This document shows positions 29,627 to 46,320 of a stretch of 64,000 nucleotides of DNA, piece after piece (the stretch's first letter is position 1; each line of letters starts with the position of its first letter). The DNA lies in contig OZ253563.1 in assembly GCA_965262855.1 (NCBI GenBank), positions 1,635,011-1,699,010 on the forward strand, given 5' to 3'. The notes under the pieces were generated by a model. The model ran no database searches and was not told where the DNA came from. It saw only the letters and a list, made by a program, of their open reading frames with translations. Both the position numbers and the translations under genes were made by a program. Source of the stretch: Arenicellales bacterium. Lineage in GTDB: Bacteria > Pseudomonadota > Gammaproteobacteria > Arenicellales > JAJDZL01.

Positions 29627-31859
29627 CAGGGCGAATTTTTGTTCAGTTCAACTGTATGATATGAAATAAATAGCGTCTGATACTGGACTTTTCTGATTGA
29701 TTCGTGTATGGTTCAGCCAACTGAAGTTGAACTGAAACGGTGAGAGATGAATTTGTCGGAGTTGGTCATCGTACCGGTCAGACGCGACGAGGAGGAGAAA
29801 TTCCTTGCGCTGATGCGGCAGCATCACTATCTTGGCGCCCCGCACAAGATCGGTGAGAGCGCGTTTTATGCCGCGGTTTTGCAGGGCCGATGGGTTGCGC
29901 TGAGTTCATTTTATGCGGCGGCCCTGAAAAGCCGCGCCCGAGATGAGTGGCTCGGCTGGCACCCAAGAGACCGTGGCGCAAGACTGCACCTGATCACCAA
30001 CCAGAGCAGATTCCTCATTCTGGAGCCGATTGCGAATCTCGCATCCCGCACTTTATCGTTGCTGGCCAAGCGTGTCGTCAAGGACTGGCCGGTGCGATTC
30101 GGACACCCGGTGCTGCTGATGGAGACTTTCGTTGACCCGCAGCGCTTTGCCGGAACCTGTTATCGCGCGGAGAACTGGATACAGATCGGGCAGACGGCCG
30201 GCTATCGGCGACAACGCCGCGGCTACCGACAAGGCTCATCACCGAAGCTGATGTTTGTGCGCCCGCTTCGGTCAGATGCGCGCCGGTTGCTCGGTGGCGC
30301 ACATCTTGATTCCCACTATTTCCCGAAAGGAGTTTGCAGGAAAATGTATACGGACGCGGATTTCAAGTCATTGCTGGATTATTTCTCACACATTGAGGAC
30401 CCGCGCGGGCGTCGCGGGCGGCGCTATCGCCTCGGGACACTGCTGGCCATTGCGGCGGCAGCCACAGTTTGCGGTGCGCGCGGCTATCAGGAGATGGGCG
30501 AATGGGTACAGGCGCAGTCAGAAAAGGTGCTTCGTCATTTCAGGGTTGGATTGCGGCGTGGCAAAGTCCAGCGTCCAAGCGTGTATTGCATCCGCGAGGC
30601 GCTGGTCAGAACCGACCCCGGGCAGTTCGATGACGCGCTTCGCAAATGGTGCATATCGATTGACGGCTGCGATGAGGCGATTGCGATCGATGGCAAGACG
30701 ATGAAAGGAGCGGTTGACGGGAACAATCGCCAGATTCATGTGCTGGGCGCCTGTGGGCATCAAAGTCGCATGCATCTGGCAAAAAAAAAGATGAGGCTTG
30801 ACTCGGACGGGAGTGAGGAGCAAAAGTACACCAACGAGATCGGCGCGTGCATCCCGTTGCTGAAATCGATTGATGACCTCAATGGCAAAGTGATCACCGC
30901 TGATGCGCTGTTGACGCAGCATGCGATTGCGAGCTATATTCTCAGCCGGGGCGGGCACTATATGTTTATTCTCAAGAACAACCAGAAAGATCTCACTGGC
31001 GAGGTGAGTATTCATTTTACCGATCTGCTTCGACTCAGACCGGATACTGAAGCTGACTTTGTCACCCGCACCGGTGACGCGACCGATGCAGGGAAAAAGG
31101 TGCCCAAGGTCCAGCATGGACGTCATGAGATCCGCGAAATCCGGGTCAGCGACAATGCCGAACTGATGGCGTATCTGAATCGCGAGTCGAAATTTCCGGA
31201 CATCGCGCAGATATTCCGCATTCGTCGCACGATTGACCACTACCGGCGTGGCGAGGTAACCAAGACGACGCAGGAAACCGTTGTCGGGATCACCTCACTG
31301 CAAGCCGCTCAGGCTGATCCGAAGACTTTGCTGGGGCTCAACCGCGGCCATTGGACCATTGAATCGAATCATCGCATTTTGGACGACTCAAACACCTGGC
31401 ACGAGGATCACCTTCTGATTCGCACCGGGCATGGACCGGAAAACGTCACGGCACTTCGCCGATTTGCGATCTCGGTGATCAGACGGCACGCAGAATCAGT
31501 TGCGCCGACGATGCGCAAATTGCGCACCAACGCACGTTTGCTCCTGGATTATCTGGGCCTGGCCGGGAACACGCGACGCAGGGGTCGGCGTTCGCCGATC
31601 ACCGGGGCCGTATGTCGATAACCCACCGAATTGTGATTGCGAAAAATCGTTGTTCGGCAACAGCCGAAACAGGAAAAATCCGTACTCCCATAGGACAGTT
31701 CACTGAAAGAATACTGAAAATCGGTTGCGGCATCACCTGAAGCGGTTCAAATCAGGCACAGTGCATGGTTTCATGCCAGTGGCCTGAACATACTTGTGAT
31801 CCATAGGCTAAAATCACGAGTCGATGGCGTTCGGTTAGCGTGACAAAAAATTTGCCTTG
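29627..31859 (+). mobile_element. ISAs1-family insertion sequence (2233 bp) with 10-bp target duplication CGGGCAGACC
   Basis: TSD at 29617-29626 and 31860-31869; imperfect IRs CAGGGCGAATTTTTGTTCA / reverse complement CAAGGCAAATTTTTTGTCA; GC-rich. Confidence 0.9.
29747..31621 (+). CDS. DUF4338 (DruA-like) domain fused to an ISAs1 DDE transposase
   Basis: N-terminal HHYLG..NQSRFLIL..LMETFVDP..GTCYRAENW; C-terminal EDPRGRRG, IAIDGKT, ITADALLTQ, LKNNQ, RGHWTIESNH. Confidence 0.88.
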   Translation: MNLSELVIVPVRRDEEEKFLALMRQHHYLGAPHKIGESAFYAAVLQGRWVALSSFYAAALKSRARDEWLGWHPRDRGARLHLITNQSRFLILEPIANLASRTLSLLAKRVVKDWPVRFGHPVLLMETFVDPQRFAGTCYRAENWIQIGQTAGYRRQRRGYRQGSSPKLMFVRPLRSDARRLLGGAHLDSHYFPKGVCRKMYTDADFKSLLDYFSHIEDPRGRRGRRYRLGTLLAIAAAATVCGARGYQEMGEWVQAQSEKVLRHFRVGLRRGKVQRPSVYCIREALVRTDPGQFDDALRKWCISIDGCDEAIAIDGKTMKGAVDGNNRQIHVLGACGHQSRMHLAKKKMRLDSDGSEEQKYTNEIGACIPLLKSIDDLNGKVITADALLTQHAIASYILSRGGHYMFILKNNQKDLTGEVSIHFTDLLRLRPDTEADFVTRTGDATDAGKKVPKVQHGRHEIREIRVSDNAELMAYLNRESKFPDIAQIFRIRRTIDHYRRGEVTKTTQETVVGITSLQAAQADPKTLLGLNRGHWTIESNHRILDDSNTWHEDHLLIRTGHGPENVTALRRFAISVIRRHAESVAPTMRKLRTNARLLLDYLGLAGNTRRRGRRSPITGAVCR

Positions 31860-34110: not shown

Positions 34111-35681
34111 GTCGATCCTGAAAAATCCATTTATCCCGTGGTTGGAAGCAATTGAGTCGCGAACGAATTTGTTGATCGACTCTGTAACCATCGTGCACCG
34201 GAATTGAATTCCGTGATGAGACGATTTGCCCTCTCCCAACAGCGTATCGGCGCCCAAAACCGTCCCCAAAAATCGAGACAAAAAAACCTCAGGCGCTTCA
34301 ATATCAAGCGTAAATTATGTCCTGCACAGCACAGCAGCACGTTCATCTGATCACCGAGCGTGCCTTTGAGATAATTGCGTCCCAGCAATCCATCGCTCTT
34401 CAGGTGACCAATAATCGGTTCAATCGCCTGTCGACGTTTCAGGCTTCGCTTTAACCGTTGCGTGGTGATGCCTCGCTTCTGACCGGAAATATACACTTCG
34501 CTTAGACTCTCGCCATGCCCCCGGTAACCCCGATCCACAAAAACCTCATCTATCCGCTGCCCGCTCATCCGACGTACCTGCTCCAGTACTCCAGTCAAAG
34601 TATGTCCATCATAGGGGTTGCCTGACAATGCCATCCCTCCGACCACGAAGTTACTCTTGTTGGTCGCCGCGATACTCACCTTCACTCCAAACTCATAATG
34701 CTTATGAGCTTTGCCCTTTGCAAGGCATTCCACTTCCGGAGCATGCAGGCTGTAGAGTTTGTTCTTGTCGTGTCGTTGCTGCTTCAACAACCGACGCGCT
34801 AACGACAGTTCCTCAGCAAACTGCCCTTGTCGTGTGGGGTCTGACGCAATCTTGCGTTCGATATCGCGAACCACACGTCCCAAATAGGTTCGCAGTGTTT
34901 TGACTTCGCGACGCATTCGACGATATTGCCGGGCATGGGCATATCTGTTCGCTTTGAGTAACGCTTTCGGTCCTTTTCGAGCATAACTCTGGCGAAGCAC
35001 CACGGCATGTTTTCGGCATAAACGAACCAGCCGCTCACGCGAGCGGTTCAATAACCTGCTGTCGGTCGGATAACTCACCGCCTTCTCCTGCACCGTGGTA
35101 TCCACCGTCACTCTTTTAAGATCCGAGGGTTTCACCACTTTACTTGTCACGCCAACAGTCACCGTGAGCTGCAGAATCAACTCACAGCCACTTTCGCCAA
35201 TGCGCTTTCGATATCGGGTCATACTGCTCGGGTCAATCGGAAGTTTATGCTGGAAATGGACTTCGCCGCAAAACTTCTGCCAGTAAGGATTCTCCACCCA
35301 TCTGTCTACCACTTCCTCGTCAGACATGCCGTACATATGCTTCAGCATTTGCAGACCCACCATCAGGCGAGTGGGTTTGCCGGGGCACCCTTTATTCGGG
35401 CAATACAGGGATCCGAAGCTTTCGTCGAACACCGACCAGTCGATCATCTCGGCCAGGCGGTAGAGTTCGTGATTGCGGTTGATGATGTTGTCCAGTTGCA
35501 GTCGGAACAGGTCGAACTGGGTTTGATTTGAAGGTTTTTCAGGGATCATTTTTCACTCCGAAATTGCAAGGAATTGACTATGAATTATAACATTACTTGC
35601 AATATCAGAACAGTGATTATGGAAGATTATATTAATATAAACAGCATGTTATGTACTATTTATTGATTATTCAGGGACGAC
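34111..35681 (-). mobile_element. IS5-family insertion sequence (~1.57 kb)
   Basis: IRs GTCGATCCTGAAAAATC / reverse complement GTCGTCCCTGAATAATC; flanked by a TAAAGA duplication (or AAAG if the IRs extend 1 bp). Confidence 0.85.
34131..35549 (-). CDS. IS5-family transposase (DUF772 + DDE)
   Basis: LHNELYRL-like start, MSDEEVVDRWVENPYWQ, VDTTVQEK, KHYEFGVK, VDRGYRG, RRQAIEPIIGHLK. Confidence 0.93.
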   Translation of the reverse strand: MIPEKPSNQTQFDLFRLQLDNIINRNHELYRLAEMIDWSVFDESFGSLYCPNKGCPGKPTRLMVGLQMLKHMYGMSDEEVVDRWVENPYWQKFCGEVHFQHKLPIDPSSMTRYRKRIGESGCELILQLTVTVGVTSKVVKPSDLKRVTVDTTVQEKAVSYPTDSRLLNRSRERLVRLCRKHAVVLRQSYARKGPKALLKANRYAHARQYRRMRREVKTLRTYLGRVVRDIERKIASDPTRQGQFAEELSLARRLLKQQRHDKNKLYSLHAPEVECLAKGKAHKHYEFGVKVSIAATNKSNFVVGGMALSGNPYDGHTLTGVLEQVRRMSGQRIDEVFVDRGYRGHGESLSEVYISGQKRGITTQRLKRSLKRRQAIEPIIGHLKSDGLLGRNYLKGTLGDQMNVLLCCAGHNLRLILKRLRFFCLDFWGRFWAPIRCWERANRLITEFNSGARWLQSRSTNSFATQLLPTTG

Positions 35682-35878: not shown

Positions 35879-36640
35879 ATGAATGTAAATCTGCAAATTC
35901 TGATTTGTTTAGGACTGGTTGTGCTTTGTTCAACAGTGACACCTTCTTACGCCATCGAAAGTCATCGTTCTGATCGTTATACTCTGCACTCACTCATAGC
36001 TAGCCCTAGTCAAAATGACCTGCTCTCAGCTGTCATACAAACCGAGTTTCCACCTCATATTGGCACAGTCGGTTCGGCCGTCGACTATATCCTACTACGC
36101 TCCGGTTACCGACATATAACAACACCGTCAGCCGTTACGGCTATGTCACTTCCACTGCCACAGTCTCATCGATCTATCGGGCCTCTTGATGTCCGCTCTG
36201 CCTTGAGAACAATTGTTGGAAAATCTTGGCAATTACTTGAAGACAACCAACTGAGAGTAGTCTGGTTTCAGCTAGCAGGGGCACTTCCGGAGCAGGACCA
36301 GAGATTGGGGTCACCAGCGTTAACTGAAATTATCGAGGCGAATCAATCAAGTTTTCCGAGTTCTGTCGATACAGATCAATTACTTGAATGGAAGCTCGAG
36401 AATTCTCGAACTCTTCGCGAGAACTTTGAGATTTGGGCACGAATTGCAAACTGGTCGCTCGAATGGAATAGCCGACATGACTACGAAATTTCGCACTCTA
36501 CAAATTTTCGAGGCACACTGAAGAATGCAGTGCAAAGTGTACTTGAACACTATCGAAGAGCTCCGATACCCCTTTCCGCTACATTTTTTACTGGCAATTC
36601 GGTTCTTTTAATTCAACCTCGATCGCAAGTTGGCAAGTAA
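35879..36640 (+). CDS. pilL: PilL (PFGI-1 type N-terminal domain + TcpQ-like C-terminal domain)
   Basis: RYTL..QNDLL..TVGSAVDYILLRSGY..PLPQSHRSIGP; C-terminal WKLENSRTLRENFEIWA..WSLEW. Confidence 0.8.
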   Translation: MNVNLQILICLGLVVLCSTVTPSYAIESHRSDRYTLHSLIASPSQNDLLSAVIQTEFPPHIGTVGSAVDYILLRSGYRHITTPSAVTAMSLPLPQSHRSIGPLDVRSALRTIVGKSWQLLEDNQLRVVWFQLAGALPEQDQRLGSPALTEIIEANQSSFPSSVDTDQLLEWKLENSRTLRENFEIWARIANWSLEWNSRHDYEISHSTNFRGTLKNAVQSVLEHYRRAPIPLSATFFTGNSVLLIQPRSQVGK

Positions 36641-36821
36641 TTTAAAAAAGAAACTTACATGCAATATTCCCTACACACCAGGTTCAAGCTCGATGTTAAT
36701 CGTTATTACCAATGTCACTACAACCCTGTCCAGTAGCTCTGATACTAGAAACAAAAGTTCACCTTCAGTTCCTCTCGTCGTTCCGAAAAAAAGTCCACTG
36801 GCTCGACTAGTAGCGAGAACC

Positions 36822-38381
36822 ATGCGAATTCCCCCAGTTTCACTTCTCTTTTGTATTACTTCCTTCTCATTTTTGATGTTGCACGGGTGTAACCTGCCAT
36901 CTTGGATAAATGCGCGATCAGACAATTTGACCAACAAGGTTGAATCTGCACTAGTAAGGTCATCGAATGAAAATCGAACACCTCTACTAAATTTAGATCT
37001 GACAAAGGAATCTTTAGGTTCCTGGCTCGGTTCCCATGTACCAATCCGTACGCTTGAAGCTCCGAAAATTATTCCAGAAGCACTTTTGCAAATCATCGAC
37101 ATAACTTATGTTGAACCGGTATCTTTGAACGAAATCGGCCGGCTCATTGCATCGAAATCCGGCATTTCAGTCAGTGTCGACCCAGACATACAATCCACCA
37201 CGCTCACTAATCTGAATTTTAGCGGCCCGGCATCTGCAGCACTCGACTATCTAGCCAGCCAACTGGGCTTTAGCTGGCGCGTTCGAAATTCCGCGGTCGA
37301 GATATTTCACACCGATCTGGAAACCTGGGTTATCTACACTCCATTAGTCAGTTCCCAGTGGAAAGCATCGGTGGGTCTATCTGGTTCGGTGCAAGGCGGT
37401 GGTGGTGGCTCTGATCTGCAAGCACGGGATCAGGTGGTGGTCTCGATGGATACTGCTGAGTTCTGGTCACAGCTGGAGACGACCATCACCGGATTGCTGT
37501 CACCCGCCGGTCGTTTGACGCTCAACCGCCAATCCGGAGAACTCATAGTGATCGACACACCCCGCTCACTCACGCGCGTTGATGAGTGGATTATCGGCAA
37601 GAACCAAGAGCTTGCAACTCAAGTGGTTGTGCATGTGGATCTGTATGAGATCGAACGTAACGAAGATGCAATCTCAGGCTTTAACTTTCAGGGCATTGTG
37701 CAGGAAGCACTTGGCTCAAGTGCAGCGGCGATCGAATTCGGCAGCGATGACACCGGCGCTCTGTTTGGTCTACGCTTAACTCATTCACCGCAAAATGCCA
37801 TCGACCAAACCGATATCTCGCTGATTTTGCGCAAAGCATCCGGAGACGGTCACGTCGCAAAACTGACCTCGACTGTCCTGCGTGGAATGAACGGACATCC
37901 TGTACCGGTATTCTTCGGTGACGAGACCTCCTATCTTCAACGTCGAGACGTAGTTACTGACGAAGGATTGACGACAGTGCGACTAGTGCCTGGAAAACTC
38001 CAAGACGGCATTGCACTGAACATGATCCCTCGAGTCCTACCGAACACTGATCGCCTGCTACTCAACATTACAGTGCGGACGACTCGGATCAAGGGAATCA
38101 GTCGCTTCCCTGCGGATGCCGGACCCAATGACCCGGTAATCCAGTTGCCAGATCTGGAATCACGCTCGGTATTACTGCCAGTGATGCTACGATCAGGCGA
38201 AACACTATTTGTAGCAGGACTGGACACCGCCCGCACTACCAGCAGTCATTCCAACGGGATTTTGTCTAAGGATTCAAAAGCGCAAAACCGCCGTGCGAGT
38301 CTGGTGTTGCTGATCACGCCGCACATCATTCACCCGCCGCTCGAGATAGCCGGCTTCAAAAAACCGAGGCGCTTCAGATGA
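36822..38381 (+). CDS. pilN: Type IVb pilus liposecretin PilN
   Basis: Lipobox LHGC after ATG 36822; NGHPVP, KLQDGIALNMIPR, LRSGETLFVAG, LVLLITPHII. Confidence 0.88.
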   Translation: MRIPPVSLLFCITSFSFLMLHGCNLPSWINARSDNLTNKVESALVRSSNENRTPLLNLDLTKESLGSWLGSHVPIRTLEAPKIIPEALLQIIDITYVEPVSLNEIGRLIASKSGISVSVDPDIQSTTLTNLNFSGPASAALDYLASQLGFSWRVRNSAVEIFHTDLETWVIYTPLVSSQWKASVGLSGSVQGGGGGSDLQARDQVVVSMDTAEFWSQLETTITGLLSPAGRLTLNRQSGELIVIDTPRSLTRVDEWIIGKNQELATQVVVHVDLYEIERNEDAISGFNFQGIVQEALGSSAAAIEFGSDDTGALFGLRLTHSPQNAIDQTDISLILRKASGDGHVAKLTSTVLRGMNGHPVPVFFGDETSYLQRRDVVTDEGLTTVRLVPGKLQDGIALNMIPRVLPNTDRLLLNITVRTTRIKGISRFPADAGPNDPVIQLPDLESRSVLLPVMLRSGETLFVAGLDTARTTSSHSNGILSKDSKAQNRRASLVLLITPHIIHPPLEIAGFKKPRRFR

Positions 38382-39607
38382 GCGCACATCTCATCGCAGG
38401 CAGGAAACTGGCAGCAGGGCTGACTTGGCTTGTGCCCGGTACGCTTCCTACTACGTCAAGCGAAGCACGCAAGGCACGCGGGCTCCAAACAATTAGACCG
38501 ATACCGCTCGGCTATGCAGAGCTTGAGACGCCTGCCGGCACACAGACCGGTGCAACAGCTGACCCGACCGACATCGGGCTGGAGAGTTCCGCCGCCTGGC
38601 TAGCGCTGGCACAATCGTCTGCTGTTTTGATTGAGAAACTGGATTCCGATCAATACTGGTTGTGCGCAGTCGAAGACGGCGCTGTGTTCCCAGCCGGTGA
38701 CATCATCGGCGATAAGGACCTGATTGCGTCAAGGCTGGATGAAATTCGTCTCGACATTGAAGGCACAAAAATTCGACTGTATGAAAAAACCGGCCTGTTT
38801 GCACTTGACGACTGCGAGCCGTTAAATCTTTCCGATCTGATCGCAGATATTGAGCCGCAGGGTGACATCAGCTGTCGACTGATTCGCACCCGCAATCTCA
38901 GAAAACCGCTGTTGACGAGTATTACGGCAGTGCTCATTGCGATCAGTGGATACGGCGCCTGGAATTACTATCAGAAATTGACGGACGATAGCAGCGAGAC
39001 CAACCGAATTCGCCTCGCCACTCGACAGGCACAATTAGTCGAGACAGAAAAGATGTTGTTGAAGGAAAATCTGTCGCAAAACGCTTCGGCTTTGCTGGCC
39101 AACCTCGCCGACACGATCTATAACCGCCCGCTTCGTGCTGCTGGCTGGCATACCGGCTCCTACGAATGGAACAAAGATTCGGTGACTGCAACCTGGCAGC
39201 GAGCCCACGGTAGTATTGCCGATATCTCCGAACACTTGGAATCACGTGATCATCATCTCGATGAGGAGTCCAGAACCGTGATCGAACGTTTCGAGTTTCC
39301 AGCGCATGAAATTGCCGAGCTTCCGCCCATGGAGGAATACTTGGGCGGGCAGCACCAGCGCCATCAACTGCTGGACATACTGGCCAGACTACCGGGCAAG
39401 TGGACGCTGAGTCCGCCGCAATCCAGCGGCAAAGGGTATCTTGTACAGCGTTCTGAACTACGTGGCTCCAGTGAGCGGTTACAGGATGTTATTACGGTTG
39501 CGCATGCACTTTCAAAGTTACCGGTGCGAATTACCAGATTGAAGTTTCAGCTTGGAAACTCGTACGAATGGAATATGGAGGGAGACTACTATGGAATTCA
39601 TGAGTAG
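38378..39607 (+). CDS. pilO: Type IVb pilus accessory protein PilO
   Basis: AAGLTW N-terminus, YWLCAVEDG..GD, single TM; ATGA overlap with pilN. Confidence 0.75.
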   Translation: MSAHLIAGRKLAAGLTWLVPGTLPTTSSEARKARGLQTIRPIPLGYAELETPAGTQTGATADPTDIGLESSAAWLALAQSSAVLIEKLDSDQYWLCAVEDGAVFPAGDIIGDKDLIASRLDEIRLDIEGTKIRLYEKTGLFALDDCEPLNLSDLIADIEPQGDISCRLIRTRNLRKPLLTSITAVLIAISGYGAWNYYQKLTDDSSETNRIRLATRQAQLVETEKMLLKENLSQNASALLANLADTIYNRPLRAAGWHTGSYEWNKDSVTATWQRAHGSIADISEHLESRDHHLDEESRTVIERFEFPAHEIAELPPMEEYLGGQHQRHQLLDILARLPGKWTLSPPQSSGKGYLVQRSELRGSSERLQDVITVAHALSKLPVRITRLKFQLGNSYEWNMEGDYYGIHE

Positions 39608-40127
39608 AGCTACCGTACTCATAATGTCTCTCGTTTTGCTTGAAGTGGCTCACAGTTCTGATGTCGGCCAATTGCCCCCGCCGTGCCGTCAGTACACCAG
39701 TACGGTGGCACTGATCGACTGCCTGCAGAACCAGCAGGAAATTTTGCAACAAGTGGTCAAGTACTACGACTTGGCAGCTAAGCTCGCCGCTTTACAGGAT
39801 GAGATACAGTCAAAGCCACCAGCTTCCGACATACCAGACTTGAAATCGTCGCGAGCGCAAAGCGACCCAGTGATTGAGCGCGTCAACTGGTTCGACCAGC
39901 AACTTGAAGTGTATGCAGTCGTCGGTACACCGCGAGAACTGACAGCGTACGCCCGTCTGGAAGGCCGAGAGTACCGCCTGCGTGAAGGCGATTCATTTCG
40001 CCTGGCGCGAGTAACCAAAGTTCATCCCAGAGGTGTTGATCTGTCGGTATCTGGACACGAAATCTCGATCGGTCTGTCCGGACAGACGGCTCGACTCGTT
40101 GAGGCAGCAGTCGATGTCCAAAAGTAA
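39600..40127 (+). CDS. pilP: Type IVb pilus biogenesis protein PilP
   Basis: Signal-like N-terminus, beta-rich C-terminal VYAVVG..AYARL..LREGD..VTKV; position between pilO and pilQ. Confidence 0.65.
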   Translation: MSRATVLIMSLVLLEVAHSSDVGQLPPPCRQYTSTVALIDCLQNQQEILQQVVKYYDLAAKLAALQDEIQSKPPASDIPDLKSSRAQSDPVIERVNWFDQQLEVYAVVGTPRELTAYARLEGREYRLREGDSFRLARVTKVHPRGVDLSVSGHEISIGLSGQTARLVEAAVDVQK

Positions 40128-41787
40128 CGTCCCGCCCTACAAGCTGGTACTGACCGGCGGCCCGGATTCCATGGTGCCGATTGAAGAGTCCGAGCACGCT
40201 TACATTGCTGCCATCTCCGAAGACGATCCGCCGTCAAGCGCCCACATTCTGTTTACCTCCCTGCAGTTTCCGGCTCGCCTCAAGGCACAGCTACGGGAGA
40301 ACCTGAAGCGGCAGAAGATTCCAGTCATCAATCAGATCGAAGTCACCCCGGCTGAACTGGAGCAGATATACTCCAACACCAATTCTTTCGTCCAGGCATT
40401 GCCGTCAGACCTTAACTACGAACGCGCACTGGACTCGATTCGTGTGCTACTGGCACGGGCCGTGTCCAATGATGCATCAGATATTCACATCGTTCGCCGC
40501 CAGCGAACTGCACTGGTCAGTTTCCGCGTTGATGGGCAGATTGTCCCGTACGCTGAATGGTCTGAGCACACTGCCGATCAAACCTGCCGTTTCATCTATG
40601 AAGTGATGGGCTACGATCAGGAGGTTACCTGGAATCGCCACGAACCGCAAGATGCAGTGGTGGACACACGATTGGTGAACGGCCGCCGCATCCGGGTTCG
40701 AGTCGGCACCATTCCGGCATCGCCGGACGGTTACGACATGGTGCTAAGAATACTACCCGGCAGCGGCGACACCCTGCATCTGTCTGAGCTCGGATACGAT
40801 GCTCACCAAGTGCAGGCGATTCACAAGCTGACGCGGCGCCCGTCGGGACTGGCGGTAATGGCTGGCGGCGTCGGTAGCGGTAAGAGTACGGCAATTGTCG
40901 GCATGTTGCTCGAAGAGTTGAAGACGCACGAATCGCGGCTCCGAATCATTACAGTAGAAGACCCGCCTGAACGGGTGATTCCTGGAGCCACGCAGGTGCC
41001 GGTAGTGCGCAAACGCGGTACCGCAGCAGGCGATGAGTTCTCATTCGCAATTCGAGGTGCGCTGCGCTGTGATCCCGACACCCTGATGGTCGGCGAAATA
41101 CGCGATCTGCAGTCCGCAGTTCTGACCATCAAGTTTGCCCAGTCCGGACATCGAGTTTACACGACAGTTCATGCATCGACGGCGATCGGCATCGTCGGTC
41201 GGTTGATCGGACTCGGCGTCGACCCTTCGCAATTATGCACGCCGGACGTTCTCAAAGGACTGATCTACCAAACCTTGGTGCCGCTGCTGTGCTCAAGTTG
41301 CAAAATCACCACCAAGGAATGGCTGGCAGAAAACCATGTCGACAAGACCCGTCGACGCGAACTAGCTGAACGAGTTTCCAAAGCGCTAGGTATCCGTGGA
41401 TTAGATGTACGCAAAGTCGCCTATCGTTCGGCTGGCGGTTGTAAAAACTGCGCCAGCAGCGGTGTCATCGGCCGCACGTTGATTGCAGAAATTGCGCTGC
41501 CAGATGACGAGATGCTCTCGCAGCTGCGTGTCGGTAACTATACTGCCGCCCACCGTCACTGGCTCGAATACTTAAACGGCCAACCGGTTACTGAACACGG
41601 CATACGACTATTGGCCGATGGAATCGCGTCACCGCCCGACGTGGAATGGCGCATCGGACCACTATCTGAGCTGTTATCACTAGCAACAGCTAAACACTCG
41701 AATGGCATTGGAGATCCGGTTCAGGCTGCCCGCTCAGTTGAATTTGGCACCTCTGAACCTTTGGCGGTGGAGCGAGCGCATGTTTGA
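40114..41787 (+). CDS. pilQ: Type IVb pilus assembly ATPase PilQ
   Basis: ASDIHI, GGVGSGKST, ITVEDPPE, ALRCDPDTLMVGEIRD, GHRVYTTVHA, CxxC pairs. Confidence 0.92.
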   Translation: MSKSNVPPYKLVLTGGPDSMVPIEESEHAYIAAISEDDPPSSAHILFTSLQFPARLKAQLRENLKRQKIPVINQIEVTPAELEQIYSNTNSFVQALPSDLNYERALDSIRVLLARAVSNDASDIHIVRRQRTALVSFRVDGQIVPYAEWSEHTADQTCRFIYEVMGYDQEVTWNRHEPQDAVVDTRLVNGRRIRVRVGTIPASPDGYDMVLRILPGSGDTLHLSELGYDAHQVQAIHKLTRRPSGLAVMAGGVGSGKSTAIVGMLLEELKTHESRLRIITVEDPPERVIPGATQVPVVRKRGTAAGDEFSFAIRGALRCDPDTLMVGEIRDLQSAVLTIKFAQSGHRVYTTVHASTAIGIVGRLIGLGVDPSQLCTPDVLKGLIYQTLVPLLCSSCKITTKEWLAENHVDKTRRRELAERVSKALGIRGLDVRKVAYRSAGGCKNCASSGVIGRTLIAEIALPDDEMLSQLRVGNYTAAHRHWLEYLNGQPVTEHGIRLLADGIASPPDVEWRIGPLSELLSLATAKHSNGIGDPVQAARSVEFGTSEPLAVERAHV

Positions 41788-42820
41788 ATTAATCCGCAAC
41801 CGCATTCACCGCACTCGGTTCAGTATCGCCTCCGGTGCCCGCGCCAGACTGTGGCAGCGCATCGGCTCACTCACCAGCTCAGGAGTGCCCATTACGGCGG
41901 CCGTGGAGTTTCTACATCAAAGCAATCGCACAGGTATCGCTGCACAATTTATTGAACATCAGCGCATGACTATGCGCACCAGCGGATTTTCCGCCGCTGC
42001 CAAGGGCTGGGTACCGCAGGAAGAACTCATCATCATTGAAGTTACGCAGGAACGGAACATTGCTGACGGCTTCGAGCAAGCTGCACGCATCGCTTCGGTG
42101 CGCTCGCGTCTTCGCCACACACTGATTTCAGGCTTAGCATATCCGACCATCTTGCTATTTGGCGGAGGTGCCGTAATCGCTGTCTTGCCAGGCTATGCAT
42201 TGAACGTCATGATCGAAATTATGGATAAATCCAAGTGGCCGCCTGTGTCGCGCAGCGTGCTGGTGTTTTCCGAATTCATATCGAACTGGGGATTACCATT
42301 GGCAACCGTATTGATCATGCTGATGTCGGTTTCGGTATGGGCCGCTCCCCACTGGACTGGAACACTGCGCCGACATCTCGAATGGTATCCACCGTTCGCG
42401 CTGTATCGACAGTTCTGCGGACCGGAAGTTCTGACAGCTTGGCTGGCGCTGATGGAAGCTGGCACACAGCGTATCCGCGCACTGTCGCAGTTGGAGTCCG
42501 GCCTGCCACAATACCTTGCCTCTCATGTGCGCTCGATGCGCTCTCAACTGTATCAGGGCAAGCCGGTCGAAACCGCGCTCGACACTGGGCTGTTCTCAGC
42601 TGAAACACTTGATGATCTGCGCATCTATGAACGCACCGGCAACTTCAGTATCCACGCCAGCCGTATCGCCGAGGAAGACATCGCCCGGGCACTGGAGAAG
42701 CTTGATTCGACTACCAAAACACTTTCATCCTGTTTGCTGATCCTGATCGGCGCTGCTGCCATCTGGATTTATATTGGTGTCGCTCGTGTTGCATTCACAG
42801 TTCAGCAACAGGCATTTTAA
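41780..42820 (+). CDS. pilR: Type IVb pilus inner-membrane platform protein PilR (T2SSF)
   Basis: Two T2SSF-like halves, LAYPTILLF; follows the ATPase. Confidence 0.85.
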   Translation: MFELIRNRIHRTRFSIASGARARLWQRIGSLTSSGVPITAAVEFLHQSNRTGIAAQFIEHQRMTMRTSGFSAAAKGWVPQEELIIIEVTQERNIADGFEQAARIASVRSRLRHTLISGLAYPTILLFGGGAVIAVLPGYALNVMIEIMDKSKWPPVSRSVLVFSEFISNWGLPLATVLIMLMSVSVWAAPHWTGTLRRHLEWYPPFALYRQFCGPEVLTAWLALMEAGTQRIRALSQLESGLPQYLASHVRSMRSQLYQGKPVETALDTGLFSAETLDDLRIYERTGNFSIHASRIAEEDIARALEKLDSTTKTLSSCLLILIGAAAIWIYIGVARVAFTVQQQAF

Positions 42821-42844
42821 TTACTCATATATGGAGAACGCATC

Positions 42845-43426
42845 ATGAAATTTGTGCAATATCTTCTCAGGTTGCTACGTCGTCATCAACGAAAAGAAAC
42901 AAAACCCGATCCCGAAAAGGGCGCTATCACGGTTGCCGAGACGCTGATTGCTCTCGGCATCGGCTCCACTGTTCTGGCTGTCGTGTTCGCCGGAATACCG
43001 GCGCTCACGGATGCCCGCAACCATTCAACTTCCATGAGCGGGCTGACGCAGATCGTGACAAGCATCCGCAGCACCTTCGGCGTGCGCAACAACTTTGAAG
43101 GACTAGACACTGATCTTGCACGTCAACTGGCGGGGTTTCCGCCAAACTTCGTCGCTGGCGATGACATTATCCGACACCCCTGGGGCGGCATAGTGACGAT
43201 CACTGGAGACACTGACGGCACCTTCGACATTGCGTTCGCCGACCTGCCCGAATCCTCCTGTTCTCAACTGGTTACCTCCACGGCTGACCTGGCACAGTCA
43301 ATTGATGTCGGCGGCACAGTCCTTGGCACCGCCGGCACGGACGGCGACGGCAATCCAACCGACCCGCAAGCCGTGACTGATCTCTGTGATGGCGGGGCAG
43401 AAGTCACCTGGACATTCCGGGGGTAA
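42845..43426 (+). CDS. pilS: Type IVb major prepilin PilS
   Basis: Long basic leader ..EKG-AITVAETLI hydrophobic helix; HPWGG, two-Cys D-region (SCSQL..DLCD). Confidence 0.88.
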   Translation: MKFVQYLLRLLRRHQRKETKPDPEKGAITVAETLIALGIGSTVLAVVFAGIPALTDARNHSTSMSGLTQIVTSIRSTFGVRNNFEGLDTDLARQLAGFPPNFVAGDDIIRHPWGGIVTITGDTDGTFDIAFADLPESSCSQLVTSTADLAQSIDVGGTVLGTAGTDGDGNPTDPQAVTDLCDGGAEVTWTFRG

Positions 43427-43428
43427 AA

Positions 43429-44982
43429 ATGAAACTAAGAAATCTGCTCGCCTCACCATCCAATCGCTACTCGGAAAAGGGCGCCATCACGATAGTCGAG
43501 ACGCTGATCGTGATCAGTATCGGGCTGATTGCGCTGACGGTCTTGGCACAGGCTAAATTGAGTGAGTTCCAAGCCACCAACGCCGCCAACTCCGGCCGTG
43601 CAATCGCCACTTACTCCAGGGCTGCATCAGTGTGGCTGGCGGAAAATCCGCCGGCCGCAGACGGCATCTTCACGATCAGCGATCTGCAGGACTGCGCGGA
43701 CCCTGACGGCGTACGCTTCCTGTCGTGCACATTCGGCGCTCAGACGCCGATTGCCTACGCGCGAAATAATGCCGGCAATCCGGTCAATTACGGCAATCTC
43801 ATCATTGATGTTGTGATTACGCCTGTAGGCGCAACCGGCGTCATTGACTTCGGTGTGTTTCGAAGCGGTGGCGACGAGAACGAAGACGGACTGCCTGATT
43901 CACGTCCTGACCTGGCATCCATCGCCTTTCAGACCGCCGCCGAAGAAACCGGTGCCGGCGTGCTCGAATTTTTCGAGATGACGTTCGCCCGGGAAAGCGC
44001 GGTCGGATTGCAATTTGATCCAGATGAAGCCGATTTCGATCAAGCCGCAATCGACGATCTGTCCCGACTCCAGGCCCGCGTCGGCGCACAGGCTGGCAAT
44101 GCTCCGTTCCTGCGCCTCGATGGCGCCAACCAGATGACCGCCGGCATTAACTTCGATAACGGCATGCAGGTCAATATGGATGGCGGCGGATTGGCATTCC
44201 AGGGTCCCGGCGATGTTGGAGTACGCACTGACACCGGCACGCTGGTAGTCACGCAGAACATTCAAACGGCCGCGCTGCAGTCCGATTCGGCTGTCATTGA
44301 CGAGCTGACGGTCGAACCGCTCACCGGGGTAAAAGGTGCCGGCTTCGAGCGGCTTAACCAGGCACCGGATGTGGTGCGCATAGATGATGATGTCATTCGA
44401 CTGACCGCGCGAGTGCAAGTCAACGAAACCGACATCGAATCGAATCGCCGGAACATTGCAGACAATGAAACTGACATCAACCGCCTGACCGGTGAAGTAA
44501 ACACCAACGAAACCGCCATCGAATCGAATCGTCAGTCCGCTACAAGGAACGCAGCAGGAATCACCCGACTGACCGGCGAAGTGAACGCCAACGAATCCGC
44601 CATCAACACCAACCGGCGGAGCATTACCTCTCAACGCGGAACGCTCAGAACACAGGGTCGTAGAATCTCCGTGTTAGAAAATACATCCCCACCGCCACCT
44701 CCACCCATCTGCTCTCCCTTGTTGTCAGCCGTGCAAAGCACCCAGCGCGGTTTGGGGTACCCTTATTCTACATCTTGCAACACCAGCTGCGATGCAAGGA
44801 CCGTGTTACTGACCTGCCCCGAGGCCGCAAACGGCACCTACCGTTGCTCAAACCCGAACAGTGCAAATCCAATTCCTTACGAAAGGCGCGACACAAATAC
44901 ACTGGCTTGCCTGACCCGCACCATCAACTTTTTTTCAACCCAACGGTGCGTAGGAAACTACCACGGCAACCCGTGCCTATAA
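43429..44982 (+). CDS. pilV: PilV-like minor pilin/adhesin with heptad-repeat stalk and Cys-rich tip
   Basis: Prepilin N-terminus, YSRAASVW (PilV N-domain-like), 28-aa repeats, PPPPP linker, 8-Cys C-terminal domain. Confidence 0.8.
   Translation: MKLRNLLASPSNRYSEKGAITIVETLIVISIGLIALTVLAQAKLSEFQATNAANSGRAIATYSRAASVWLAENPPAADGIFTISDLQDCADPDGVRFLSCTFGAQTPIAYARNNAGNPVNYGNLIIDVVITPVGATGVIDFGVFRSGGDENEDGLPDSRPDLASIAFQTAAEETGAGVLEFFEMTFARESAVGLQFDPDEADFDQAAIDDLSRLQARVGAQAGNAPFLRLDGANQMTAGINFDNGMQVNMDGGGLAFQGPGDVGVRTDTGTLVVTQNIQTAALQSDSAVIDELTVEPLTGVKGAGFERLNQAPDVVRIDDDVIRLTARVQVNETDIESNRRNIADNETDINRLTGEVNTNETAIESNRQSATRNAAGITRLTGEVNANESAINTNRRSITSQRGTLRTQGRRISVLENTSPPPPPPICSPLLSAVQSTQRGLGYPYSTSCNTSCDARTVLLTCPEAANGTYRCSNPNSANPIPYERRDTNTLACLTRTINFFSTQRCVGNYHGNPCL
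44422..44616 (+). repeat. 84-bp (28-aa) degenerate tandem repeat inside pilV
   Basis: Units AACGAAACCGACATCGAATCGAATCG (44422), AACGAAACCGCCATCGAATCGAATCG (44506), AACGAATCCGCCATCAACACCAACCG (44590). Confidence 0.9.
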
Positions 44983-45876
44983 TTTAAATGTGTCCCAATC
45001 CGCCATTCGATGACGCACTAATGCCGCAGATCTGCCAATTGAATTGAAAAGCCTCCACCGACTTGCTATCGTTAGAGAATGCAACAATCGCGGAGAAGCA
45101 AAATGCAGCCCTGCATAGGACAAGTCAGTCGAATATCAGCGCTTCACCATGGCTGTCGAATGCAGGCAACCGGTGGCATATCGTGACGAGCTACACAAAA
45201 TCGGAGCTTGGATTTTCGCCGAAAACAGAGACTCATTCAGCTTTAGTTCCCGACTACTTCTGCTAAAAAGGGCAGGTCGACCATTTCCTTTGCTACCGTC
45301 CATGAACGAACCGCATTCTCATCTATGATCGACTTCTCATGAGGATTTCAGAACGATGTCAGTCTGTTCATTTTTCACCGGAATCGAGGCAAAGCGTTCA
45401 TACGGCACTGGGTAGTTCCAAGTCTTTGGACCACTGGGCATCACACTGATGAGACCGGCAGGAGGCTTTATCCAATCTTCGACGACGATGCTTGCTTGCA
45501 TCATCGTTCAACTAGCAAACGCTCAAAGTGCCTCCCGAATACGACCTCTACGTCGAACTGTCACCGGATGGTCAGCAGATTGATTTTCAAGCGGGTACGA
45601 TATTGCCTCTCTCCAAGAACTCGAATTCGGGGGCGCAGACTTGGATTTCGCAATATTCAGGTCAAATTTTCCGCTCACCCCTAAAATTCGGAGTTGCAAT
45701 TGCGTATCAAAGCGATTAGGACAAGGAAAAATTTCGCCCCTTAAAAATCACCTAGAGCAACTATAACGCAAGATTGAGAAGAGATGCGCCAGCACCGCCC
45801 TATACTTACTGGGAACTCTAGCTACCCTAGACCTAGATTCGCCTTATATTGCGTCTGAGGACGTTTTCCAATCTGA

Positions 45877-46320
45877 ATGGCAGAAATCCTAACTAAAATC
45901 CTGTCATTTGGCACGTTTTCCTGTGTTTTGCTTTGCTTGGCAGTAGAAGATCACCGGGAGAACAAATTGCGAAACTGTATTACGCTTCCGTTACTTGCTA
46001 GCGGACTAGTATTTAATTCGACTGCTATCTTCGTTCCAATTCAATCTTCGATTTTGGGCGCTATGATAGGCTACTTGAGTATCCGTACGTTGCATGACGC
46101 CCAAGTTTCACTTCGAGGGGCCTCTGGCATTGGATTGGGAGATGCAAAATTCCTCTCTGCTCTAGGTGCATGGTTTGGCTTGCAAGCCGTACCTATCTGC
46201 ATTGTTGGAGCATCAATTGTGATGTTGACAGTGTACCCAAGAAGACAGGAAAAACCGTTCGGTGTCGGGCTGTCACTCATCGCGGCTGGAATTGCCGGTC
46301 ATTACATAATTTTAGTGTAA
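45877..46320 (+). CDS. Prepilin peptidase, A24 family (PilU-like)
   Basis: VEDHRENKLRN, GIGLGDAKFL..GAWFG, KPFG. Confidence 0.85.
   Translation: MAEILTKILSFGTFSCVLLCLAVEDHRENKLRNCITLPLLASGLVFNSTAIFVPIQSSILGAMIGYLSIRTLHDAQVSLRGASGIGLGDAKFLSALGAWFGLQAVPICIVGASIVMLTVYPRRQEKPFGVGLSLIAAGIAGHYIILV

What the first reader, a model, noticed from the sequence alone, without database searches (positions are those of the whole stretch)
43429..44982. PilV built like a stalked adhesin: pilin head, 28-aa heptad repeats, poly-Pro hinge, 8-Cys tip
Seen: three 84-bp repeats encoding NETDIESNRRNIADNETDINRLTGEVNT-type units (4 heptads each, Asn-rich), then SPPPPPP and a ~90-aa C-terminal domain with 8 Cys ending ..CVGNYHGNPCL. 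Established: R64/SPI-7 PilV tips are swapped by shufflons to change receptor; Asn-containing heptads typify trimeric autotransporter stalks. Inference: a fixed, extended, disulfide-rich receptor-binding tip whose reach can vary by repeat number, possibly binding a eukaryotic host.
Basis: partly seen in the sequence, partly recalled or inferred. Interest (0 to 1): 0.62.

Follow-up and report, generated by a model that had tools for sequence, protein, structure and literature searches.

The report
Stalked tip pilin of conjugative pilus
A mobile-element pilus operon in a marine Arenicellales bacterium encodes an undescribed tip pilin: a coiled-coil stalk of variable length, a proline linker and a fast-varying eight-cysteine knob that probably chooses which cell the pilus grips.

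Summary
ORF 43429-44982 (517 aa) follows pilS in the type IVb pilus operon of a PAPI-1/PFGI-1-type integrative conjugative element (ICE) in an Arenicellales genome. It has a prepilin-like leader, a 54-residue N-terminal helix and a pilin-like head. Then come 15 unbroken heptads (a = Ile/Val, d = Asn/Leu/Gln), a Pro6 linker and a 90-aa, 8-Cys domain.

In 83 of 85 homologues the stalk length differs only by whole heptads (7 to 15). Asn at position d marks parallel trimeric coiled coils, and the stalk profile matches phage-fibre-like proteins. The tip folds confidently (pLDDT 88) but matches nothing in PDB or BFVD.

The tip is the hypervariable part: mean identity is 50%, against 87% for the head. 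Two ICE copies in one chromosome are 99-100% identical except across the distal stalk and tip (64-73%).

No shufflon is present. By sequence the protein is not a PilV (Shufflon_N) member; it only occupies the PilV slot.

Best reading: a trimeric, CofB-like tip adhesin that selects conjugation partners. Reach is set by heptad number, and specificity is swapped by recombination rather than inversion. Trimer state and ligand are inferred, not shown. A eukaryotic target is neither supported nor excluded. I rate it a new variant of a known kind.

The parts
43429..44982 (+). Whole gene: 517-aa modular minor pilin in the PilV slot (stop codon 44980-44982)
   Evidence: 184 homologues, none named, no Pfam domain
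43429..43482 (+). Leader, residues 1-18, ending in invariant E16 and G18 (class III, prepilin-like). Glu lies 6 residues after the Gly, not 5
43483..43644 (+). Residues 19-72: long hydrophobic-then-amphipathic N-terminal helix (pilin alpha1)
   Evidence: helix 19-72, pLDDT 72-84
43645..44091 (+). Residues 73-221: pilin-like beta-sheet head. Homologous (28% identity, E 2e-14) to heads of canonical GFTLIE-type minor pilins whose distal part is PilV-like
44092..44376 (+). Residues 222-316: conserved Gly-rich middle region (FLRLDGANQMTAGINFD...). Poorly modelled as a monomer; possibly an intertwined neck
44377..44682 (+). Residues 317-418: coiled-coil stalk, 15 continuous heptads (pattern starts at residue 314), a = VVVIIIVIAIVIILI, d = ILNNNLNNNLNNQQL
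   Evidence: (single helix 318-417)
44393..44644 (+). Three 84-nt (28-aa, 4-heptad) direct repeats inside the stalk
44686..44706 (+). Residues 420-426: SPPPPPP linker (4 to 11 Pro in homologues)
44707..44979 (+). Residues 427-517: 8-Cys tip domain (one helix plus five strands). Hypervariable, with no fold match
42845..43426 (+). pilS major pilin (PF08805), same leader motif
35879..42820 (+). pilL2-pilN-pilO-pilP-pilQ-pilR assembly genes of the ICE type IVb pilus
45111..45716 (+). Frameshifted 3' remnant (aa about 481-716) of a 717-aa S8 subtilase gene. The gene is intact between the pilV-slot gene and the peptidase gene in close relatives
45877..46320 (+). Prepilin peptidase (Peptidase_A24)

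Best explanation
The gene encodes the tip-located minor pilin of a conjugative type IVb pilus carried by a PAPI-1/PFGI-1-type (MPF_G) integrative conjugative element (ICE) of an Arenicellales bacterium. The dedicated A24 peptidase removes its leader. The N-terminal helix and head seat it at the top of the PilS filament. As in CofB and TcpB, three copies cap the three-start filament. Here the three chains are held together by a parallel trimeric coiled coil with Asn at position d: 15 heptads, about 15 nm, and 7-15 heptads across the family. Through a short polyproline linker the stalk holds out three 90-residue knobs, each cross-linked by four disulfides. The knob is the receptor-binding module. 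It most likely recognises a surface structure (LPS, glycan or outer-membrane protein) of recipient bacteria to start mating-pair formation. Specificity is diversified by homologous recombination that swaps the distal stalk plus tip between ICE copies, not by a shufflon. Reach is tuned by gain or loss of whole heptads, favoured by the 84-nt repeats. Shown: the architecture, the heptad quantisation, the Asn-at-d pattern, the conjugative context, the tip hypervariability and mosaicism, and the absence of a shufflon. Inferred: trimer state, tip location, disulfide formation and the ligand.
For: Context. PilL2 (TIGR03748, PFGI-1-class ICE), PilN, O, P, Q, R, S, an A24 peptidase, ParA, DUF2857, ArdC, RAQPRD, DUF3487, DUF2895, DUF3438, a TraC/VirB4-like ATPase and TraU are all in the window. 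The same synteny occurs in relatives.
Pilin character. The leader is shared with PilS. AlphaFold2 gives a helix at 19-72 plus a beta head. The head is homologous to canonical GFTLIE minor pilins.
Coiled coil. AlphaFold2 gives one continuous helix at 318-417. There are 15 heptads with aliphatic a and 8 Asn plus 2 Gln at d. The distance between invariant R317 and I413 is 40, 54, 61, 68, 75, 89 or 96 residues in 83 of 85 homologues, all equal to 5 mod 7. Stalk relatives are phage fibre, needle and fibritin-like proteins (hhalign 95%). Polar residues at d but not at a, with Asn-at-d layers holding an anion, are the signature of trimeric stalks (PMC13580157).
Trimeric tips of type IVb pili have precedent in CofB (PMC6048534).
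Tip. pLDDT is 87.6 and the 8 Cys are conserved. Mean identity is 0.50 against 0.87 for the head, and 243 homologue pairs have head >=0.90 but tip <=0.50. For L001 versus L002, head dS is 0.02 and tip dS is 0.46. A sharp identity trough is confined to the distal stalk and tip.
The tip is a portable module, also found on a non-pilin secreted protein behind a Pro-rich linker.
In PAPI-1 the C-terminal 97 residues of PilV2 bind recipient LPS (PMC5297154).
The gene is intact and near-identical in runs filed under at least 8 studies.
Against: No multimer prediction or experiment was possible, so the trimer rests on sequence rules and analogy. The full-length model is only moderate (pLDDT 68.7), and residues 222-316 are unmodelled. 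Foldseek does not recover a pilin fold for the head. No ligand evidence of any kind exists.
This ICE copy shows decay: IS elements, a subtilase pseudogene next door, and possibly missing core genes, so the pilus may no longer serve transfer here.
RNA evidence is minimal: two small contigs in one run whose RNA label is itself a guess.
dN/dS in the tip is below 1 (0.43-0.92), so positive selection is not demonstrated. Mosaicism together with relaxed constraint also fits.
Confidence: 0.6

Rival explanations
1. The pilus and its stalked tip mainly serve adhesion to a eukaryotic host, to particles or to sister cells (aggregation or colonisation), as reported for some island-borne type IVb pili, rather than recipient recognition in conjugation.
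For: Arenicellales includes sponge-associated families. Disulfide-rich knobs on stalks are typical of host adhesins. The tip domain also occurs on a chromosomal secreted Ig-like protein outside any ICE. This ICE copy looks partly decayed, yet the pil genes stay intact. Weak, non-significant Foldseek resemblance to cystine-knot ligands.
Against: The gene is embedded in the conjugation module of an MPF_G ICE, in conserved synteny. The studied counterparts (R64, TP114, PAPI-1) bind recipient LPS or outer-membrane components (PMC5297154, PMC9045228). Two ICEs in one chromosome differ precisely in the tip, which fits partner discrimination between elements. No host-related data were found.
Confidence: 0.2
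2. The protein is a monomeric minor pilin. The 100-residue helix is a single rigid spacer, or pairs with another protein, and the Asn-rich heptads do not make a homotrimer.
For: AlphaFold2 models a lone helix in the monomer. The oligomeric state of type IVb minor pilins in action was debated (PMC6048534).
Against: There are 15 uninterrupted heptads with aliphatic a and Asn/Leu/Gln d, and indels come strictly in sevens across 83 of 85 homologues. That conserves a core seam, which a solvent-exposed single helix would not need. The pattern lacks the charged E/K/R-rich composition of stable single alpha-helices. The closest stalk relatives are phage fibres. No partner coiled-coil gene sits in the operon.
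Confidence: 0.1
3. In this particular genome the gene is a relic of an immobilised ICE with no current function. Its features reflect past selection only.
For: There are two IS elements, and the subtilase gene next to it is truncated and frameshifted. The operon has a foreign GC content. Earlier first-reader notes suggest missing ICE core genes (unchecked).
Against: The 517-codon ORF and all eight upstream pil genes plus the peptidase gene are intact. A 99% identical protein and near-identical DNA occur in many runs from several studies. Head dN/dS is about 0.25.
Confidence: 0.1

Closest known systems
PilV tip adhesins of conjugative type IVb pili (R64/IncI1, TP114/IncI2, SPI-7; PAPI-1 PilV2)
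   Same: The gene directly follows pilS in a pilL..pilS operon of a conjugative element. It has a prepilin-type leader. It is a large minor pilin with a conserved N-terminal part and a variable C-terminal part of about 90-100 aa; in R64 and PAPI-1 that part binds recipient LPS (PMC5297154, PMC9045228). A bridging protein (Pseudomonas sp. FeN3W) joins a head like ours to the distal part of Shufflon_N.
   Different: There is no Shufflon_N match in any of the 85 homologues, and hhalign probability to an IncI PilVA is 0.2%. The beta-rich distal constant region is replaced by a coiled coil plus polyproline. There is no rci, no sfx repeats and no alternative segments. Variation arises by recombination between elements rather than by inversion.
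CofB (ETEC CFA/III) and TcpB (V. cholerae TCP) trimeric type IVb minor pilins
   Same: It is a single large minor pilin of a type IVb system: a pilin domain followed by extra C-terminal domains, proposed to cap the filament as a homotrimer and to carry the binding function (PMC6048534, PMC9565799).
   Different: CofB trimerises through beta-repeat and H-type lectin domains; here the trimerising element would be an Asn-at-d coiled coil. No sequence or fold similarity was detected. The trimer is inferred, not shown.
[quoted passage not shown]
   Same: The heptads have aliphatic a and mostly Asn at d (PMC13580157). Length variation comes in whole repeats. A stalk presents a distal binding domain. 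Profile similarity to phage-fibre-like proteins.
   Different: Anchoring is by a type IV pilin module, not a YadA beta-barrel anchor or a phage baseplate. No TAA head, neck or anchor domains were found. The stalk is much shorter.
Modular type IV pilins (S. sanguinis PilB vWA module and PilC lectin module; Raynaud et al. 2021, PMC8179133)
   Same: A pilin module is fused to an independently folding functional module that gives the pilus its adhesive property.
   Different: The grafted part is a three-piece device (trimerising stalk, Pro linker, Cys knob) of unknown fold. It sits in a Gram-negative conjugative type IVb pilus.

Membership tests
PilV / Shufflon_N (PF04917) minor pilins | Sequence match to the Shufflon_N constant region | tested here: not met
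   No Pfam hit for the query. None of the 85 homologues hits PF04917 even at E<=10. hhalign of the family against an IncI PilVA gives 0.2% probability, while that PilVA scores E 8.6e-185 as positive control.
PilV / Shufflon_N (PF04917) minor pilins | Shufflon: rci recombinase, sfx inverted repeats, alternative 3' segments downstream | tested here: not met
   Only two weak inverted repeats were found. No second tip-like coding segment exists in the 64-kb window. The 894 nt downstream are a subtilase gene remnant.
PilV / Shufflon_N (PF04917) minor pilins | Gene position after pilS in a pilL-to-pilS operon, with a prepilin-type leader | tested here: met
   (same order as in the IncI plasmid pN580).
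Type IV (pre)pilins | Class III signal (Gly at -1, Glu at +5) and a hydrophobic alpha1 of about 53 residues | tested here: inconclusive
   Invariant G18 and E24 and a modelled helix at 19-72. However, Glu lies 6 residues after Gly, and N_methyl hits are only marginal (27 of 85 members, best E 0.48). Relatives with canonical G|VTLIE lack the extra residue.
Trimeric type IVb tip minor pilins (CofB/TcpB) | Homotrimer capping the filament | not testable with these tools
   Only monomer prediction was available. Inferred from the Asn-at-d heptads and from precedent (PMC6048534).
Trimeric type IVb tip minor pilins (CofB/TcpB) | Sequence or fold similarity to CofB/TcpB C-terminal domains | tested here: not met
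   PDB sequence search empty. Foldseek of the full model and of the tip gives nothing below E = 1.
Asn-at-d trimeric coiled coils (TAA and phage-fibre stalks) | Continuous heptads, aliphatic a, frequent Asn at d | tested here: met
   15 heptads; d = ILNNNLNNNLNNQQL. Indels are quantised in sevens in 83 of 85 homologues. hhalign 95% to a fibre-like protein.
Trimeric autotransporter adhesins | C-terminal YadA-type beta-barrel anchor | tested here: not met
   No such Pfam domain. The C-terminus is the Cys knob.
MPF_G (ICEclc/PAPI-1/PFGI-1-type) ICE with type IVb pilus | PilL2 (TIGR03748) plus MPF_G transfer genes (RAQPRD, DUF3487, DUF2895, DUF3438, TraC-like ATPase, TraU) | tested here: met
Modular type IV pilins | Pilin module followed by an independently folding extra module | tested here: met
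   The tip folds alone at pLDDT 87.6 and also occurs on a non-pilin protein.

The most novel reading that the evidence does not exclude
This family would be the first type IV pilus tip built like a phage fibre or trimeric autotransporter. An Asn-at-d coiled coil would enforce the trimeric cap of a conjugative type IVb pilus and present three copies of a new disulfide-knotted binding fold. ICEs would then set and change their recipient range, and avoid their own kind, by recombinational swapping of the stalk-end and tip cassette and by heptad slippage. That would be a population-level functional equivalent of the shufflon. The free-standing secreted Ig-linker-tip protein (P0156) could act as a soluble competitor or exclusion factor.
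Probability: 0.3. Interest if true: 0.7.

Novelty: new variant of a known kind. Interest (0 to 1): 0.55.

Why it matters
Recipient choice by conjugative elements is understood for only a few enterobacterial plasmids and PAPI-1, where PilV tips are varied by a shufflon or are fixed. This family suggests a second design: a different tip architecture (coiled-coil stalk, proline hinge, Cys knob) and a different way of diversifying it (recombination confined to about 450 nt, plus stalk length changes in whole heptads).

It also offers a sequence-level argument that type IVb tip pilins work as trimers, a question that has been debated. The Asn-at-d stalk makes that directly testable with a small soluble construct.

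The tip is a compact, confidently predicted domain with no match in PDB or BFVD. The family is unnamed, has no Pfam model, and so far appears restricted to uncultured marine Arenicellales.

Tried and rejected
- Tandem Repeats Finder found no array. The repeats are too diverged, so I used the repeat finder and an offset-identity test instead.
- PDB sequence search gave nothing.
- Foldseek of the full model against PDB, and of the tip against PDB and BFVD, gave nothing below E = 1. Recurrent weak hits to cystine-knot growth factors (NGF, Norrin, IL-17A, Spaetzle, VWF-CK; TM about 0.25) are not significant, and I do not claim them.
- Shufflon idea rejected: no sfx-like inverted repeats, no silent tips, and no recombinase gene after the ORF.
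- Rfam search of the 0.9-kb gap found nothing.
- Plasmid collection: only one distant head homologue, in a region with no pil genes annotated.
- TAA membership rejected: no anchor domain.
- Positive selection on the tip is not demonstrated: pairwise dN/dS is 0.43-0.92. The stalk reaches about 1.05-1.10, but only three sequences were compared.
- RNA evidence: two small contigs in one possibly-RNA run, too weak to claim expression.
- No multimer prediction tool was available.
Full report
**1. Observation**

The ORF listing gives a 517-aa ORF at 43429..44982 (+). It starts 3 nt after the stop of a 193-aa ORF.

The repeat finder finds three copies of a 65-nt core at 44393, 44477 and 44561, spaced exactly 84 and 84 nt apart. 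They are 71-72% identical, and a 42-nt sub-period is also present. Tandem Repeats Finder reports nothing. An offset test shows why this is still not chance. A 168-nt block is 66-67% identical to itself shifted by 84 nt, against 28 +/- 3.9% for 52,535 other in-frame comparisons within the gene. That is z of about 9.8, the highest value of all.

The translation shows TSPPPPPPI and a 90-residue tail with eight Cys ending CVGNYHGNPCL. All elements of the observation are confirmed.

**2. Context**

Pfam and NCBIfam scans name the neighbouring genes:
- PilL2 at 35879 (TIGR03748, 'PFGI-1 class ICE element type IV pilus protein')
- PilN secretin at 36630
- PilO at 38378
- PilP at 39552
- PilQ ATPase at 40033
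- PilR (T2SSF) at 41702
- PilS pilin (PF08805) at 42845
- the target ORF, then a Peptidase_A24 prepilin peptidase at 45877

Further out lie ParA, DUF2857, ArdC, two IS transposases, RAQPRD, DUF3487, DUF2895, DUF3438, a TraC/VirB4-like ATPase and TraU. This is the gene set of ICEclc/PAPI-1-type (MPF_G) integrative conjugative elements (ICEs). The pilus is therefore the conjugation-associated type IVb pilus, and the ORF sits in the slot that pilV occupies in R64-type operons. An IncI plasmid was fetched for comparison.

Relatives found in named genomes are all Arenicellales MAGs. Two copies lie in one 3.18-Mb chromosome.

The pilN(3')-to-target-gene stretch is 52-59% GC, inside an element of 38-44% GC.

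**3. Anatomy**

The leader (...SEKGAITIVETLIV...) is almost the same as that of PilS.

AlphaFold2 with an 85-sequence alignment gives mean pLDDT 68.7. It predicts:
- a 54-residue helix (19-72), the length of a pilin alpha1
- a beta-sheet domain (79-221)
- a conserved but unmodelled region (222-316)
- one uninterrupted helix (318-417)
- a confident C-terminal domain (pLDDT about 88-91)

Folded alone, the tip reaches pLDDT 87.6 and pTM 0.66, with one helix and five strands.

**4. The stalk is a genuine Asn-at-d coiled coil**

Taking Ile336 as position a, residues 314-418 form 15 heptads without a stutter. Position a reads VVVIIIVIAIVIILI and position d reads ILNNNLNNNLNNQQL.

Across 85 homologues the number of residues between invariant R317 and near-invariant I413 is 40, 54, 61, 68, 75, 89 or 96 in 83 sequences. 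All these values equal 5 mod 7; only two sequences (71) break the rule. Evolution therefore adds and removes only whole heptads. The common steps include exactly 28 residues, the 84-nt repeat. This preserves a core seam, which is what a coiled coil requires.

Polar residues concentrated at d and not at a, with Asn triads coordinating an anion, are the hallmark of trimeric stalks in autotransporter adhesins and phage fibres (Hartmann et al. 2009, as summarised in PMC13580157).

A profile search of 1.84 billion representatives finds only about 34 clusters of the family itself at E <= 1e-30. Hundreds of large multi-repeat proteins match the stalk alone. Those tested carry phage tail, needle or fibritin PHROG matches. 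hhalign to one fibre-like protein bearing the SGDTMTGDL tail-fibre motif gives 95% probability.

A stalk of 15 heptads is about 15 nm long (my arithmetic, 1.5 Å per residue). The family spans 7-15 heptads.

In metagenome run X3 one contig carries a net 84-nt deletion (44461 to 44547). Its depth is 22.6, against about 100 for the full form. It may belong to a related element, so this shows natural repeat-number variation, not necessarily slippage within one clone.

**5. The tip is the variable, portable module**

The eight Cys are conserved in number in essentially all full-length homologues, while the C-terminal sequences fall into many classes.

Mean pairwise identity by region among 78 close homologues:

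| Region | Mean identity |
|---|---|
| alpha1 | 0.87 |
| head | 0.87 |
| middle | 0.87 |
| stalk | 0.64 |
| tip | 0.50 |

There are 243 pairs with head >= 0.90 but tip <= 0.50. One example is P0003 versus P0056: head 0.987, tip 0.37.

For the two copies in one chromosome (L001 and L002), Nei-Gojobori estimates give head dN 0 and dS 0.02, against tip dN 0.40 and dS 0.46. Sliding nucleotide identity is 0.99-1.00 through pilS and the head. It falls to 0.64-0.73 only across the last 450 nt or so (distal stalk, linker, tip), then returns to about 0.9 after the stop codon. Synonymous divergence jumps about 20-fold, which indicates recombinational replacement of a cassette and not merely fast point evolution.

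dN/dS is about 0.25 in the head, about 1.05-1.10 in the stalk and 0.43-0.92 in the tip for the window versus L001 and L002. Constraint is relaxed or diversifying distally, but positive selection is not proven.

The tip also occurs on a 240-aa chromosomal secreted protein (signal peptide, Ig-like segment, PPPQSPPPQSPP linker, tip) outside any ICE. It is thus an autonomous module.

No solved or viral predicted structure resembles it.

**6. Relationship to PilV**

The query has no Pfam domain. None of the 85 homologues hits Shufflon_N, even at E <= 10. hhalign of the family against an IncI PilVA gives 0.2% probability, while that PilVA scores E 8.6e-185 on Shufflon_N as positive control. By sequence, then, this is not a PilV.

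A bridge does exist. A protein on a Pseudomonas sp. FeN3W megaplasmid has a canonical RG|VTLIE leader and a head 28% identical to ours (E 2e-14). That similarity runs up to the shared motif WLRTDGSNQM/FLRLDGANQM. Its distal part matches positions 214-324 of Shufflon_N (E 1e-5) and the ASCSxxG...ILSCxxGxW motif of PilVA (E 5e-10). P0223 shows the same combination.

The picture is one of modular minor pilins. A common head carries either the beta-rich PilV distal region or, in Arenicellales ICEs, a coiled coil plus Cys knob.

No shufflon exists here: no sfx-like inverted repeats and no extra tip segments anywhere in the window. The 894-nt gap after the gene is the frameshifted 3' third of an S8 subtilase gene. 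That gene is intact at this position in L001, L002 and L008.

**7. Mechanism proposed**

- Shown: architecture, heptad quantisation, Asn-at-d pattern, conjugative context, distal hypervariability and mosaicism, absence of inversion machinery.
- From established knowledge: type IVb minor pilins CofB and TcpB cap the three-start filament as homotrimers and carry the binding function (PMC6048534, PMC9565799). The C-terminal 97 residues of PAPI-1 PilV2, and the variable ends of R64 and TP114 PilV, bind recipient LPS or surface structures and set transfer specificity in liquid (PMC5297154, PMC9045228).
- Inferred: three copies of this protein cap the PilS filament, zipped by the Asn-at-d coiled coil. 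Three disulfide-locked knobs are held about 17 nm beyond the head on polyproline hinges. They bind a surface structure of recipient cells. Specificity changes by recombination between ICE copies, and reach changes by heptad gain or loss.

I put this at 0.6. The rivals are host or particle adhesion (0.2), a monomeric spacer helix (0.1) and a functionless relic in this genome (0.1).

**8. Novelty**

The kind of system (tip adhesin of a conjugative type IVb pilus; modular pilin) is known. The stalk type is known from other protein classes.

What I could not find described is a type IV pilin with an Asn-at-d coiled-coil stalk, a polyproline hinge and this Cys-knob fold. Nor could I find tip diversification by localised recombination in place of a shufflon. 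The literature searches were limited to the open library.

Earlier notes of this scan report other pilin/phage-fibre chimeras (unchecked). Pilin-anchored trimeric fibres are therefore probably a broader theme, which tempers the score. Verdict: new variant of a known kind, interest 0.55.

Noticed in passing
window 44983-45876 (similarity at 45111-45716): The 'empty' 0.9 kb after the gene is the frameshifted 3' remnant (aa about 481-716, frame change near 45495) of a 717-aa Peptidase_S8 subtilase. The gene is intact between the pilV-slot gene and the prepilin peptidase gene in L001, L002 and L008. A subtilase as a conserved member of this pilus operon is unexplained; it might process the stalked pilin.
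   Followed up: partly
window about 37000-45000 versus flanks: The pilN(3')-to-target-gene block is 52-59% GC, while pilL, the peptidase gene and the T4SS genes are 38-44% GC. The target protein is 80% identical to its L001 counterpart, but the peptidase only 55-57%. This fits replacement of the structural pilus genes by recombination with a higher-GC ICE lineage.
   Followed up: partly
window 43474-43506 and 42914-42985: PilS and the target share the leader KGAIT(I/V)xETLI, with Glu 6 residues after the invariant Gly. This holds in all 85 homologues. The more distant head relatives have the canonical G|(V/F)TLIE with one residue fewer. Either cleavage occurs after Gly-Ala, or the mature pilins carry Glu6.
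   Followed up: partly
L001 and L002 (both in OZ244730.1): One Arenicellales chromosome carries two copies of this ICE pilus operon. They are 99-100% identical through pilS and the head of the target gene and differ sharply only in the last 450 nt or so of that gene.
   Followed up: yes
L009 5001-5723 (protein P0156): A chromosomal 240-aa secreted protein consists of a signal peptide, an Ig-like segment, a Pro-rich linker and the same 8-Cys tip domain. It lies outside any ICE, in the same metagenome sample as L008. It could be a soluble competitor or exclusion factor, or an independent adhesin.
   Followed up: partly
L007 7989-9386 (Pseudomonas sp. FeN3W megaplasmid CP136011.1): A 466-aa 'hypothetical protein' is a minor pilin. 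Its head resembles this family, its middle is a beta-repeat (KGSISTDSSISALGS...), and its distal region is PilV-type. It lies among unannotated genes with no pil operon annotated nearby.
   Followed up: partly
window 29747-31621 and 34131-35549: Two IS transposase genes (one with DDE_Tnp_1 plus a DruA-like N-terminus, one with DUF772 plus DDE) flank an ArdC anti-restriction gene just upstream of pilL. This suggests erosion of this ICE copy.
   Followed up: no
window 40672-40863 and 43453-43619: One run guessed to be RNA (X25) holds two short contigs that match pilQ and the 5' end of the target gene at 99-100% identity. This is a weak hint of transcription.
   Followed up: partly
tip model, residues 426-517: Among the non-significant Foldseek hits, cystine-knot growth-factor folds recur (NGF, Norrin, IL-17A, Spaetzle, VWF CK domain; TM about 0.25, E > 3).
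   Followed up: no
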